A stretch of DNA of 15,526 bases, taken from IMG/VR virus record IMGVR_UViG_2869924733_000009. One strand, given 5' to 3'. Shown here in pieces: positions 12,330 through 14,493 of the stretch (position 1 is the first letter of the stretch; every line of letters begins with the position of its first letter). The notes under the pieces were generated by a model that did not search any database, had not been told where the DNA came from, and was given only the letters and a program-made list of their open reading frames with translations. The translations under genes and the position numbers were made by a program. The DNA comes from a virus (Duplodnaviria; Heunggongvirae; Uroviricota; Caudoviricetes).

Positions 12330-12393
12330 GGTTATGAGATATAGCTATGAGCAGCTTATTTTTAACCGAAGATGAATTGCTAGGCTGTGTCCC

Positions 12394-12909
12394 TTAATTA
12401 CGTAAGCGTTGATAAAAGAGTCGGATGCAGCCCAGTTTCACCATCGCCAGGTAATTTCTCGCCGTTTTGTCGTAACGCGTGGCGATGCGGCGATATTCTT
12501 TCAGCCGCCCAAAGCACCGTTCAACGACATTACGATTGCAGTACGCATCACGATCAAGCTGTGCACGTCCATCCGATGCCATTTTCTCATTTGACTTTCG
12601 GGGGATTACTGCCTTTATACCGTTATTTTTCAGCTCGTTGCGCAATGCGCGCCCTGAATACGCTTTATCAGCCAGTACCGCATGTCCACGGCGTTTCATG
12701 CTGCCGTTCTGACGCTGAACGCCAATCCCGTCCAGAAGTCGTTGCGCGAACTGGCTTTCATGAGCTTGTCCGGGGCTTAGCACGATATTTAACGGGAGGC
12801 CACTTCCGTCTGTTGCCAGATGGATTTTGGTGCCAAAACCGCCGCGAGAGCGACCCAGCCCATTATCTCCGTCGATATCGGGATGTTTTTTTGAGCACCG
12901 GCGGCACAT
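12394..12909 (-). CDS. IS5-family transposase OrfB (DDE catalytic part); probably expressed as an OrfAB fusion by -1 frameshift
   Basis: Catalytic-domain-like sequence (...AVLADKAYSGRALRNELKNNGIKAVIPRKSN...). In the orfA frame the minus-strand A7 tract (T7 at 12886-12892 on plus) reads CAA AAA AAC, an A AAA AAC slippery heptamer; a -1 slip continues in the orfB frame. Confidence 0.75.
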   Translation of the reverse strand: MCRRCSKKHPDIDGDNGLGRSRGGFGTKIHLATDGSGLPLNIVLSPGQAHESQFAQRLLDGIGVQRQNGSMKRRGHAVLADKAYSGRALRNELKNNGIKAVIPRKSNEKMASDGRAQLDRDAYCNRNVVERCFGRLKEYRRIATRYDKTARNYLAMVKLGCIRLFYQRLRN

Positions 12910-13238
12910 TTCAGCGCCCGGATATTACTGCCATCCAGCGCGGTGGCAGACCAGTCAATAAAGCCGTTTGCATCAAGTAGCGAAAGCAACCTGTTGAAAA
13001 TAATATTAATCACGCCTGACTTTGACCATCGGTTAAAGCGGTTATAAACAGTTTTCCATGACCCATATCGTTCGGGTAAATCGCGCCATGGTGCACCGGA
13101 ACATAACACCCAGAACATGCCATTGATGATTTTACGGTGCTCAGCCCATGGGCGTCCGGCCCGTGGTGTGGCGGGTTCAGGAGGTAACAGGGGCTTGATG
13201 ATGGTCCATGCCTCATCGGGAAGGTCGTAGCGAGCCAT
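12789..13238 (-). CDS. IS5-family transposase OrfA (N-terminal DNA-binding part), 149 aa
   Basis: MARYDLPDEAWTIIKPLLPP... N-terminal transposase HTH region; overlaps orfB across an A7 tract. Confidence 0.8.
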   Translation of the reverse strand: MARYDLPDEAWTIIKPLLPPEPATPRAGRPWAEHRKIINGMFWVLCSGAPWRDLPERYGSWKTVYNRFNRWSKSGVINIIFNRLLSLLDANGFIDWSATALDGSNIRALKCAAGAQKNIPISTEIMGWVALAAVLAPKSIWQQTEVASR

Positions 13239-13467
13239 AGTTCAATATGTTGTGTAAACAGACAGTTACTATAGCTCAGATGATTAAGGGACACAGCCTA
13301 ATATTAACGGGCTGCAAATATGCAAGCCACCAGCGAAAATGGTTAATGGAAAACGGGCTTCCGTTCTATACCAATCGTAGTGGCAAACCGATTGTCAGCC
13401 GGGATCTATTTACCTGCAATAAAACTTTACCACCACGCGAGGTAGAGCCGAATTTTGGTGCGATCTG

Positions 13468-14493
13468 ATGGGAAGACGAAGGAAAAATCCTGAACACGAA
13501 AAATTACCTCCAAATGTATACCCAAATAAATATAGTTATGTATGGAAACCAACATCCAGAGAATCTGTAACACTAACCGCCATCAAGGATGGTTTAGCTG
13601 CTTTATGGAAAAAGTATGAGGAAACTGTAAATAATCGCGATCGTGCAATGACATTCGGTCGCTTGTGGGAAAAATTCCTCGCCAGCGCCTATTACAGTGA
13701 CCTCAGTCCAAGAACACAAAAAGATTATCTGCAACATCAAAAAAAGTTGCTTGCCGTATTCGGTAAGGTGCCGGCAGATTCCATAAAACCAGAACACATC
13801 CGTCGATACATGGACAAGAGAGGGGAACAGAGTAAAACGCAAGCCAACCATGAAAAAAGCAGTATGTCCCGCGTTTACAGTTGGGGGTATGAGCGAGGGT
13901 ACGTGAAGGCTAACCCATGTGCAGGTGTAAGTAAATTCAAGGCCAAAAACCGCGAACGATATGTAACCGACAAAGAATACCAGGCAGTATTAAGCGTTGC
14001 ACCTCTTCCTGTTTTTATCGCAATGGAAATTGCCTATCTGTGTGCAGCGAGGGTTTCCGATGTGTTATCGCTGAAATGGGAGCAGATTGGAAACGACGGG
14101 ATCTTTATCCAGCAAGGGAAAACAGGAAAAAAACAGATAAAAGCATGGAGTCCACGATTACAGGCGGCGATCGAAAAAGCAAAACAGTTACCAACATCCG
14201 CCTATGTAATCAGCAATCAATACGGCAACCGATATATGTACAAAGGCTTTAACGAAATGTGGGTAGAAGCAAGAAATCGCGCAGGCAAAATTTCAGGTAT
14301 TTTAACCGACTTCACCTTTCATGATCTGAAGGCGAAAGGAATTTCAGACTATGAAGGAAGCAGTCGGGATAAGCAACTTTTCTCTGGTCACAAAACCGAG
14401 GGGCAAGTGCTAATCTATGACAGGAAGGTTAAAGTTTCACCGACACTTGATGTCCCGTTACCTGAAAATATTCCAAGAAAATATTCCAAGTAA
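13468..14493 (+). CDS. int: Lambda-family tyrosine integrase (341 aa), with Lys in place of the second conserved catalytic Arg (HDLK instead of HxLR)
   Basis: N-terminal arm-binding signature MGRRRKNPEHEKLPPNVY (lambda Int: MGRRRSHERRDLPPNLY); catalytic region ARVSD (Arg I), FHDLKAKG, GHK, LIYDR (Tyr). Transcribed toward and ending 52 bp from the tRNA 3' end. Confidence 0.9.
   Translation: MGRRRKNPEHEKLPPNVYPNKYSYVWKPTSRESVTLTAIKDGLAALWKKYEETVNNRDRAMTFGRLWEKFLASAYYSDLSPRTQKDYLQHQKKLLAVFGKVPADSIKPEHIRRYMDKRGEQSKTQANHEKSSMSRVYSWGYERGYVKANPCAGVSKFKAKNRERYVTDKEYQAVLSVAPLPVFIAMEIAYLCAARVSDVLSLKWEQIGNDGIFIQQGKTGKKQIKAWSPRLQAAIEKAKQLPTSAYVISNQYGNRYMYKGFNEMWVEARNRAGKISGILTDFTFHDLKAKGISDYEGSSRDKQLFSGHKTEGQVLIYDRKVKVSPTLDVPLPENIPRKYSK

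What the first reader, a model, noticed from the sequence alone, without database searches (positions are those of the whole stretch)
12347..13468. Excisionase gene split by an IS5-family element; precise in-frame restoration on IS removal
The IS (12383-13298) sits 11 codons into an ORF that, after removing the IS and one TA, reads as a 66-aa lambda-Xis-like protein whose stop overlaps the int start. The in-frame restoration independently supports the IS boundaries. Loss of Xis would prevent excision even if Int were active, locking the element in the chromosome. The IS also appears to encode its transposase by -1 frameshifting on an A AAA AAC heptamer.
Basis: partly seen in the sequence, partly recalled or inferred. 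Interest (0 to 1): 0.55.

Follow-up and report, generated by a model that had tools for sequence, protein, structure and literature searches.

The report
ISSfl7 insertion splits prophage excisionase-like gene
A known 916-bp insertion sequence (ISSfl7) has landed in the small gene just upstream of the integrase in a decayed prophage remnant of Shigella dysenteriae, which is the ordinary IS-driven gene decay typical of Shigella.

Summary
A 916-bp element (12383-13298) with 16-nt perfect terminal inverted repeats and a TA/TA duplication interrupts a small ORF. Removing it plus one TA gives a sequence 100% identical over 600 nt to uninterrupted alleles in E. coli genomes. Two numbers need correcting: the restored protein is 67 aa (not 66), and the IS sits after codon 12 (not 11).

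The element is ISSfl7, an IS5-family element with IS427-group architecture. RefSeq annotates its transposase as made by programmed frameshift, and the A AAA AAC site is at 12885-12891 on the minus strand.

The split gene belongs to Pfam DUF4224 (PHROG 1266, "excisionase"), not to the lambda Xis family. An excisionase role is inferred from three things: its conserved position abutting or overlapping a lambda-type integrase gene, a predicted small helix-plus-hairpin DNA-binding-like domain, and database labels. No experiment was found.

The "locking" idea is moot. The window is an exact piece of S. dysenteriae CP027027.1, where only about 13-14 kb of a roughly 47-kb serU lambdoid prophage remains. 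That remnant is riddled with IS630 and IS66 copies, and no second att core lies within the 14.7 kb held upstream of serU.

Verdict: real, correctly read in the main, biologically ordinary, low interest.

The parts
12347..12382 (+). 5' fragment of the DUF4224 (putative excisionase) gene, codons 1-12. As it stands it reads MSSLFLTEDELLGCVP* into the IS.
   Evidence: identical to the start of WP_000096344.1 in IS-free alleles
12381..12382 (.). Left copy of the duplicated TA target (bases 2-3 of codon 12).
   Evidence: the empty site in relatives has a single TA
12383..13298 (-). ISSfl7 (IS5 family, IS427-group architecture), 916 bp. Terminal inverted repeats lie at 12383-12398 and 13283-13298. 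The transposase is on the minus strand.
   Evidence: 99.9% identity to other copies; PGAP: IS5-like element ISSfl7 family transposase
12789..13238 (-). IS orfA (149 aa, DUF4096 N-terminal transposase domain).
12394..12909 (-). IS orfB in the -1 frame (DDE domain). With orfA it forms the 281-aa fused transposase spanning 12394-13238.
   Evidence: PGAP joins the equivalent coordinates and notes 'programmed frameshift'
12885..12891 (-). Slippery heptamer A AAA AAC (orfA frame CAA AAA AAC), the predicted -1 frameshift site.
   Evidence: no significant downstream RNA structure (z = 0.02)
13299..13300 (.). Right copy of the duplicated TA target.
13301..13468 (+). 3' fragment of the DUF4224 gene (codons 13-67 plus stop). 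The stop overlaps the int ATG by one base.
13247..13468 (+). Hybrid ORF that starts inside the IS end. It is 73 aa from the ATG at 13247, or 62 aa from the ATG at 13280, which is RefSeq WP_105242000.1. It is an artefact of the insertion and is probably non-functional.
13468..14493 (+). Lambda-type tyrosine integrase, 341 aa, ORF intact. The C-terminal tail is altered by a 13-bp tandem duplication at 14465-14490.
14546..14635 (-). tRNA-Ser(CGA) (serU), whose 3' end faces int.
14545..14576 (.). 32-bp att core (TTGGCGGAGAGAGGGGGATTTGAACCCCCGGT). It occurs once in the window and its flanks, and twice (46.7 kb apart) in an intact relative.

Best explanation
ISSfl7 is a 916-bp IS5-family insertion sequence with IS427-group architecture. 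It transposed into the TA of codon 12 of a 67-aa DUF4224 gene and duplicated that TA. The gene lies immediately upstream of, and overlaps by one base, a lambda-type integrase gene at the serU end of a lambdoid prophage in Shigella dysenteriae.

Shown:
- The identity and boundaries of the IS.
- The TA duplication.
- Exact restoration of the wild-type allele when the IS and one TA are removed.
- The insertion is shared by several S. dysenteriae assemblies.
- Only a remnant of the prophage is present.

Inferred:
- The DUF4224 protein is the prophage's recombination directionality factor (excisionase).
- The insertion abolishes it, because it removes the predicted first strand and cuts predicted helix 1.
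- The IS makes its transposase by -1 ribosomal slippage on A AAA AAC.

The insertion is one of several IS-mediated lesions in an already immobile remnant. It is not the event that immobilised the element.
For: IS identity:
- 99.8-99.9% identity over 916 nt to copies that PGAP labels 'IS5-like element ISSfl7 family transposase, programmed frameshift'.
- The fused 281-aa product matches NF033580 at 319 bits, and Pfam DUF4096 plus DDE_Tnp_1.
- A TA/TA flank is seen at three independent copies.
- A 2-bp direct repeat, two overlapping ORFs and a frameshift motif are the published traits of the IS427 group (PMC3281130).

Restoration:
- 600/600 nt identical to IS-free E. coli alleles annotated as a DUF4224 protein followed by an integrase followed by tRNA-Ser and mtfA.

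Gene family and role:
- PF13986 at 57 bits and PHROG 1266 'excisionase' at 3e-21.
- Homologues ST64B Sb29 and mEp390 gp28 are annotated as excisionase and are also DUF4224.
- In 3 of 3 distant homologues whose neighbour has a clear Pfam hit, a Phage_integrase gene abuts or overlaps directly downstream on the same strand.
- The AF2 model (pLDDT 83.6) shows two helices followed by two short strand segments. RDFs (P2 Cox, Pukovnik Xis, TorI) and BldC are among the weak top hits.

Int is a lambda Int homologue. It aligns over residues 1-313, including the MGRRR..LPPN.Y N-terminus.

Source and remnant status:
- The window is an exact substring of CP027027.1, and the proteins are named Shigella dysenteriae.
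- The same junction is present in L009, L010, L011, L016 and L017.
- The intact relative has two att cores 46.7 kb apart; here there is only one.
Against: - No DUF4224 protein was found to have been tested for excisionase activity. Literature searches for DUF4224 returned nothing on function.
- There is no sequence-level link to any solved Xis.
- Frameshifting has not been shown for ISSfl7, and no stimulatory downstream structure was detected.
- I held only about 10 kb on each side of the exonuclease gene. A distal att copy moved elsewhere in the genome by an IS-mediated inversion cannot be excluded.
Confidence: 0.85

Rival explanations
1. The DUF4224 protein is not an excisionase. It would be some other small DNA-binding or regulatory protein of the early-left operon, and the IS hit would then have no bearing on excision.
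For: Pfam still lists the family as a domain of unknown function. It does not match lambda Xis (PF07825) by HMM or hhalign. No PDB sequence hit was found. Structural hits are weak and also include MerR/BldC-type regulators. No functional literature was found.
Against: A Phage_integrase gene lies directly downstream on the same strand in all three distant homologues whose neighbour has a clear Pfam hit, and the same DUF4224-then-integrase order is seen in ST64B, mEp390 and BUCT708. The start/stop overlap with int is lambda-like. A conserved C-terminal P-[ND]-F-x-A-[IL] tail recalls the Int-binding tail of lambda Xis (the analogy is an inference). PHROGs places three matching families under 'excisionase'.
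Confidence: 0.15
2. The hybrid ORF created by the insertion (73 aa from 13247, or 62 aa from 13280) still supplies excisionase activity, so the gene is altered rather than destroyed.
For: The hybrid keeps 55 of 67 residues. It retains 7 of the 9 invariant or nearly invariant positions (T15, G16, Q23, W26, L27, G40, V44) and the C-terminal tail. It still passes the Pfam threshold at 44.8 bits, and RefSeq lists it as an ordinary protein, WP_105242000.1.
Against: It lacks invariant L6 and nearly invariant E10. It also lacks the first strand and half of helix 1 (H8-15) of the model. I see no Shine-Dalgarno-like sequence upstream of either ATG (direct reading). The scan found no promoter-like site reading out of the IS end on the + strand. 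The IS, transcribed in the opposite direction, separates it from the upstream operon.
Confidence: 0.05
3. One reading: the IS insertion in xis came first and is what fixed an otherwise excisable prophage in the chromosome, with the remaining decay following.
For: Int is still an intact ORF with its family's usual motifs. The same gene was hit independently by IS630 in S. boydii, 6 bp away. This is compatible with repeated early loss of excision.
Against: The order of events cannot be read from the data. Both assemblies with enough flank to judge (L008, L009) already have the truncated, IS-riddled remnant. The ISSfl7 copy is 99.9% identical to other copies, which suggests a recent event. The target stretch CTAATATTAA offers several TA sites to TA-targeting IS elements, so recurrence needs no selection.
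Confidence: 0.1

Closest known systems
ISSfl7 (IS5 family; IS427-group architecture)
   Same: 99.8-99.9% nucleotide identity over the full 916 bp to copies that PGAP names ISSfl7. It has the same terminal repeats, the same TA flanks, and the same two-ORF transposase annotated with a programmed frameshift. An ISSfl7 insertion in fimD of S. boydii is already published (PMC4374849).
   Different: Nothing of substance; this is simply another copy at a new site. At 916 bp it is somewhat longer than the 832-865 bp IS427-group elements tabulated in PMC3281130.
IS1 A6C frameshift site
   Same: The same slippery heptamer, A AAA AAC, between two overlapping transposase ORFs. IS1 frameshifting is cited via Sekine and Ohtsubo 1989 in PMC3281130; that the IS1 site is A6C is from my own knowledge.
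   Different: A different IS family, and frameshifting has not been demonstrated for ISSfl7.
Lambda Xis (Pfam PF07825, PDB 1LX8/1PM6)
   Same: A small protein of about 70 aa encoded immediately upstream of, and overlapping, a lambda-type int gene. It has a predicted small helix-plus-hairpin domain followed by a flexible C-terminal tail.
   Different: No detectable sequence homology (hhalign probability 0.45%; a separate Pfam family). Lambda Xis itself is not among the listed fold hits.
ST64B Sb29/Sb28, mEp390 gp28/gp27 and Stenotrophomonas phage BUCT708 modules
   Same: The same two-gene module: a DUF4224 gene followed by an Int of the same subfamily (48-62% identity), with the shared FHDLKAKGISD motif. 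The small gene is annotated as excisionase in ST64B and mEp390.
   Different: Those copies are uninterrupted. Their excisionase label is also by inference.
serU lambdoid prophage of E. coli (for example in FDAARGOS_536, NZ_CP033762.1)
   Same: 99.4-99.8% identical over window 8213-12382 and 13298-15526. It has the same ydfA-C, dicB, ydfD, exonuclease, DUF4224 and int genes, then serU and mtfA, in the same order.
   Different: The relative is a roughly 46.7-kb prophage with both att cores and full morphogenesis genes. The window keeps only the early-left end and carries IS630, IS66 and ISSfl7 insertions.

Membership tests
IS5 family / IS427 group (ISSfl7) | DDE transposase of the IS5 type | tested here: met
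   The fused 281-aa product matches NF033580 at 319 bits (cut-off 110), PF13340 at 103.8 bits and PF01609 at 77.6 bits.
IS5 family / IS427 group (ISSfl7) | Short terminal inverted repeats | tested here: met
   16 of 16 nt are perfect at the very ends, with 85% complementarity over 27 nt.
IS5 family / IS427 group (ISSfl7) | 2-bp target duplication (TA) | tested here: met
   TA/TA flanks are seen here and at two other copies. The empty site in E. coli has a single TA. PMC3281130 lists a 2-bp direct repeat for most of the IS427-group elements it tabulates.
IS5 family / IS427 group (ISSfl7) | Two overlapping ORFs joined by a -1 programmed frameshift | tested here: inconclusive
   The ORF layout and the A AAA AAC heptamer are present, PGAP annotates a programmed frameshift, and only the fusion spans the whole NF033580 model. 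Actual slippage is not testable here, and no stimulatory structure was found.
IS5 family / IS427 group (ISSfl7) | Near-identity to the named element | tested here: met
   99.8% identity to the copy PGAP labels ISSfl7 in NZ_CM177020.1. The ISfinder reference sequence itself was not available.
Pfam DUF4224 (PF13986) | Score above the gathering threshold | tested here: met
   57 bits against a 22-bit cut-off, covering profile positions 1-43 of 45.
Lambda Xis family (PF07825 Exc) | Sequence or profile similarity to lambda/HK022 Xis | tested here: not met
   No PF07825 hit was found, whereas lambda Xis itself scores 141 bits. hhalign gave probability 0.45% and E = 0.13. No PDB sequence hit was found.
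Lambda Xis family (PF07825 Exc) | Xis-type winged-helix fold | tested here: inconclusive
Recombination directionality factor (functional class) | Encoded next to its cognate integrase | tested here: met
   There is a one-base overlap with int here. The same arrangement is seen in 3 of 3 distant homologues whose neighbour has a clear Pfam hit, and in three phages.
Recombination directionality factor (functional class) | Stimulates excision and binds the att arm | not testable with these tools
   This needs an excision assay or EMSA. No published test of a DUF4224 protein was found.
Lambda-type tyrosine integrase (the neighbouring gene) | Catalytic domain and the R-K-H-R-H-Y residues | tested here: inconclusive
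   PF00589 scores 43.8 bits, and the protein aligns to lambda Int over 1-313 versus 1-338. The positions of lambda R212, K235, H308 and H333 are matched in that alignment. The likely catalytic Tyr (LIYDRK) lies beyond it and is conserved in the family. Lambda R311 is replaced by Lys (FHDLK), and this is conserved across the subfamily, including in isolated phages.

The most novel reading that the evidence does not exclude
DUF4224 may be an uncharacterised family of excisionases for lambda-type integrases, with a conserved C-terminal P-[ND]-F-x-A-[IL] tail that would contact Int. Its repeated inactivation in Shigella (ISSfl7 in S. dysenteriae, IS630 six bases away in S. boydii, and frameshifted alleles named S. 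flexneri) might then reflect selection to fix a useful prophage fragment carrying dicB, DicF and the exonuclease, rather than neutral IS bombardment.
Probability: 0.08. Interest if true: 0.35.

Novelty: new member of a known kind. Interest (0 to 1): 0.12.

Why it matters
It matters little beyond annotation hygiene.

- It is a clean, fully resolved example of IS-mediated pseudogenisation in Shigella.
- It shows that RefSeq lists an IS/xis hybrid ORF (WP_105242000.1) as a normal DUF4224 protein when it should be marked as a disrupted gene.
- The one modestly useful lead is that DUF4224 is a widespread family placed directly next to integrase genes, and it has not been characterised experimentally. 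It would be an easy target for an excision assay.

Tried and rejected
- An exact look-up of the 73-aa hybrid ORF to find the source genome returned nothing. The exonuclease look-up succeeded instead.
- Two GenBank "phage" records carry the identical xis-int module and looked like evidence that the intact element can be induced. I rejected this because both records include mtfA, tRNA-Asn and the neighbouring island's integrase, so they are predicted prophage regions.
- PDB sequence searches with the protein and with a 40-sequence profile gave only chance hits.
- hhalign against lambda Xis was not significant.
- The Foldseek PDB search gave nothing at E <= 0.001.
- The word-indexed homologue search returned only 8 close relatives. 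The exhaustive representative search was needed to build a diverse alignment.
- The promoter and terminator scan around the insertion found no more than shuffled sequence gives.
- RNA folding downstream of the slippery site gave z = 0.02.
- Literature searches for DUF4224 plus excisionase, DUF4224 alone, and CP027027 gave nothing on function or on this locus.
- The 90%-identical IS relatives near 2.0 Mb in E. coli chromosomes might have been in the same prophage. They are not: the copy I checked sits next to ompC and is a pseudogene.
- I considered whether the PGAP "frameshifted" flag on int means a dead integrase. I rejected this as unproven, because the flag comes from a 13-bp tandem duplication after the catalytic Tyr that changes only the last few residues.
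Full report

Yes. Reading the sequence directly:
- An ATG at 12347 opens 12 codons (MSSLFLTEDELL).
- At 12383 a block begins with GGCTGTGTCCCTTAAT and ends at 13298 with the exact reverse complement. The block is 916 bp.
- The repeat finder extends the inverted repeat to 27 nt at 85% complementarity, and that stretch includes a TA on each side (12381-12382 and 13299-13300).
- Deleting 12383-13300 (the IS plus one TA) joins the 12 codons in frame to 55 more and a stop, giving a 67-aa protein. Deleting the IS alone leaves the frame broken.
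- The TGA at 13466-13468 shares its last base with the ATG of a 341-aa ORF.

The protein is 67 aa, not 66, and the IS follows codon 12, not 11.

**2. Is it more than chance?**

Decisively so.
- The reconstructed 600-nt junction is 100% identical, without gaps, to the 25 top-listed complete E. coli genomes. A further 1101 genomes cover at least 80% of it.
- In those genomes PGAP annotates an uninterrupted 204-nt gene (WP_000096344.1, "DUF4224 domain-containing protein"). A tyrosine recombinase gene, tRNA-Ser and mtfA follow it.
- The 30 nt left of the IS are followed by ATATTAACGG... in the E. coli loci and by the IS end in the Shigella loci.
- So the insertion is exactly 918 bp: 916 bp of IS plus a duplicated TA.

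**3. What is the inserted element?**

It is ISSfl7.
- It is 99.8-99.9% identical over its whole length to copies in 13 records. These include enteroinvasive-type strains and one genome with 36 copies.
The coordinates correspond to window 12394-13238.
- The two overlapping minus-strand ORFs are orfA (12789-13238) and orfB (12394-12909, in the -1 frame). They meet at CAA AAA AAC, so the X XXY YYZ heptamer A AAA AAC lies at 12885-12891.
- The fused 281-aa product matches NCBIfam NF033580 over 2-257 of 258 positions at 319 bits. It also matches Pfam DUF4096 plus DDE_Tnp_1.
- Two other copies are likewise flanked by TA/TA.
- A 2-bp duplication, short inverted repeats and two ORFs with a conserved frameshift motif are the published signature of the IS427 group of the IS5 family (PMC3281130).
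- The 70 nt downstream of the heptamer fold no better than shuffled sequence (z = 0.02). The frameshift therefore rests on the heptamer, the ORF layout and the annotation, not on an experiment.
- ISSfl7 has already been reported disrupting a gene: fimD in an S. boydii strain (PMC4374849).

**4. What is the interrupted gene?**

The family is clear:
- The restored protein hits Pfam DUF4224 (PF13986) at 57 bits, against a cut-off of 22.
- It hits PHROG 1266 at 3e-21. PHROGs labels that family and two weaker matches "excisionase".

It is not a member of the lambda Xis family:
- Lambda Xis scores 141 bits on PF07825, and the restored protein does not hit that model.
- A 40-sequence DUF4224 profile against lambda Xis gives hhalign probability 0.45%.
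- PDB sequence searches with the single protein and with the profile find nothing real.

The structural evidence is weak:
- An AlphaFold2 model was built on a diverse alignment from the exhaustive representative search.
- It is confident over residues 1-50 (mean pLDDT 83.6). It shows a short strand, two helices (8-15 and 20-29) and two short strand segments, followed by a low-confidence tail.
- Foldseek finds no hit at E <= 0.001. Its weak top matches are RacA, BldC, Pukovnik Xis, Tn916 Xis and MerR-type domains.
- This is compatible with an excisionase-type winged helix but does not prove it.

The strongest support for an excisionase role is gene order:
- In distant homologues (35-49% identity) from metagenomes, the DUF4224 gene abuts or overlaps a downstream Phage_integrase gene on the same strand. 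It sits at the end of a RecT/exonuclease operon in two of them. This held in 3 of 3 cases whose neighbour has a clear Pfam hit.
- The same is true in phages ST64B, mEp390 and BUCT708. There the small gene is DUF4224, and in two of them it is annotated as excisionase.
- The family also has a conserved C-terminal P-[ND]-F-x-A-[IL] tail. By analogy with lambda Xis this could contact Int; that is an inference.

I found no paper that tests any DUF4224 protein.

**5. The neighbouring integrase**

- The 341-aa ORF aligns with lambda Int over residues 1-313, including the N-terminal MGRRR..LPPN.Y arm-binding signature.
- It is 59% identical to the ST64B integrase.
- Where lambda Int has H308-E-L-R311, this protein has F-H-D-L-K. 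The Lys is conserved in ST64B, mEp390 and BUCT708, so it is a subfamily trait and not a lesion.
- PGAP flags the identical gene in E. coli as "frameshifted". The likely cause is a 13-bp tandem duplication (AAAATATTCCAAG twice, 14465-14490). It changes only the last residues after PENIP and varies in copy number among strains.
- Int variants of 340, 341, 345, 346 and 349 aa are on record.

**6. Where does the window come from, and in what state is the element?**

Source:
- The window is an exact substring of CP027027.1 (L008), and its exonuclease and hybrid ORF are named Shigella dysenteriae.
- The same ISSfl7 junction is present in a second long assembly (L009) and at the ends of at least four short contigs (L010, L011, L016, L017). 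The insertion is therefore shared within a lineage.

State of the prophage:
- The closest IS-free relative (E. coli FDAARGOS_536) carries a prophage bounded by two copies of a 32-bp att core 46.7 kb apart. It has complete head, tail, lysis, replication and regulatory genes.
- In the window and in the two long Shigella loci the core occurs only once, at serU.
- What lies upstream of int is:
  - the split DUF4224 gene and an 813-aa exonuclease;
  - ydfD, dicB, DicF, ydfC, ydfB and ydfA;
  - an IS66-family element nested inside an inverted copy of itself;
  - a cI/cro/ydaT region;
  - an IS630 copy cutting a DUF1398 gene.
- In L009 chromosomal genes (mlrA and an IS4-interrupted EAL gene) follow immediately.
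- So about 13-14 kb of a roughly 47-kb prophage remains, with no partner att site within reach.

**7. How it most likely works**

The mechanism is ordinary transposition into a TA.
- The immediate effect is a 16-residue peptide from the 5' end. The 3' part has no promoter-like site or ribosome-binding site that I could detect.
- The hybrid ORFs starting in the IS end lack invariant L6, nearly invariant E10, the first strand and half of helix 1.
- No Shine-Dalgarno-like sequence precedes either start (direct reading). The scan found no promoter-like site reading out of the IS end on the + strand.
- If the protein is the excisionase, its function is lost.
With one att core and most of the prophage gone, Int/Xis excision is already impossible.
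- The order of events cannot be recovered from the data I hold.

**8. Recurrence**

- S. boydii assemblies carry IS630 in the TA of codon 14 of the same gene, 6 bp from the ISSfl7 site. Their int is also cut by an IS3-family element.
- Frameshifted alleles exist as well, one of them named Shigella flexneri.
- The local sequence CTAATATTAA offers several TA targets, so recurrence needs no selection.

**9. Verdict**

The finding is real and was read well from raw sequence. It is a new copy of a known IS in a known but uncharacterised gene family, inside a decayed Shigella prophage.
- Novelty: new member of a known kind.
- Interest: low, 0.12.
- Practical points: RefSeq lists the hybrid ORF as a normal protein, and DUF4224 would be an easy family to test for excisionase function.

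Noticed in passing
window 14465-14490: There is a 13-bp tandem duplication (AAAATATTCCAAG twice) at the 3' end of int. It changes the Int tail from ...PENIPSNSKCDFCH* (345 aa with a single copy) to ...PENIPRKYSK* (341 aa). Match spans 13 bp longer or shorter in some E. coli genomes point to copy-number variation, and this is probably why PGAP marks the identical gene as 'frameshifted'.
   Followed up: partly
window 14307-14339 (Int residues ~280-290): This integrase subfamily has the conserved motif FHDLKAKGISD where lambda Int has H308-E-L-R311. A Lys therefore stands at the second catalytic Arg position. It is conserved in ST64B, mEp390 and Stenotrophomonas phage BUCT708.
   Followed up: partly
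window 2740-8212: An IS66-family element is nested inside an inverted copy of itself. The plus-strand copy spans 3631-6385. It sits inside a minus-strand copy made of 2740-3630 plus about 6386-8212. An 8-bp overlap (5495-5502 equivalent) is consistent with an 8-bp target duplication, and the outer copy has a 35-bp deletion. The related strain L009 appears to have only one copy.
   Followed up: partly
window 306-1337 (minus strand) and 1-300: An IS630-family transposase gene (343 aa) lies next to a 99-aa DUF1398 (ybcV-like) ORF, which appears to be truncated by the insertion. In L009 chromosomal genes (mlrA, IS4, an EAL-domain gene) lie just beyond, marking the truncated end of the prophage remnant.
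   Followed up: partly
window 9151-9202 (+): The DicF small RNA (Rfam RF00039, 76.7 bits) lies between ydfC and dicB and is intact in the remnant.
   Followed up: no
window 12299-12334: A 14-nt-arm hairpin (TAATTGCCGCTAAC ... GTTAGCGGCGGTTA, 8-nt loop) lies between the exonuclease stop and the xis start. It is also present in IS-free relatives. Its function is unknown.
   Followed up: no
L019-L021 (S. boydii assemblies), locus positions ~2846-4204: This is an independent disruption of the same DUF4224 gene. IS630 is inserted at the TA of codon 14, 6 bp from the ISSfl7 site, producing the hybrid protein P0001. In two of the three loci (L019, L020) IS3-family transposase genes follow the hybrid, and the L019 sequence shows int cut after about 120 nt.
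   Followed up: yes
window 13280-13468: RefSeq WP_105242000.1 ('DUF4224 domain-containing protein [Shigella dysenteriae]', 62 aa) is the IS/xis hybrid ORF. Its first 7 residues are encoded by the ISSfl7 end, so the disruption is hidden in the annotation.
   Followed up: yes
L006, L007 (GenBank ON470583, ON470580): Two records deposited as Escherichia phages (partial genomes) contain mtfA, tRNA-Asn and the adjacent island's integrase beyond serU. They are predicted prophage regions with chromosomal flank, not packaged genomes.
   Followed up: yes
L002 (E. coli E200086) 4001-4915: A 90%-identical relative of ISSfl7 sits next to ompC in many E. coli chromosomes. It lacks one base at the slippery site (A7 followed by A rather than C) and is annotated as a pseudogene with an internal stop.
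   Followed up: partly
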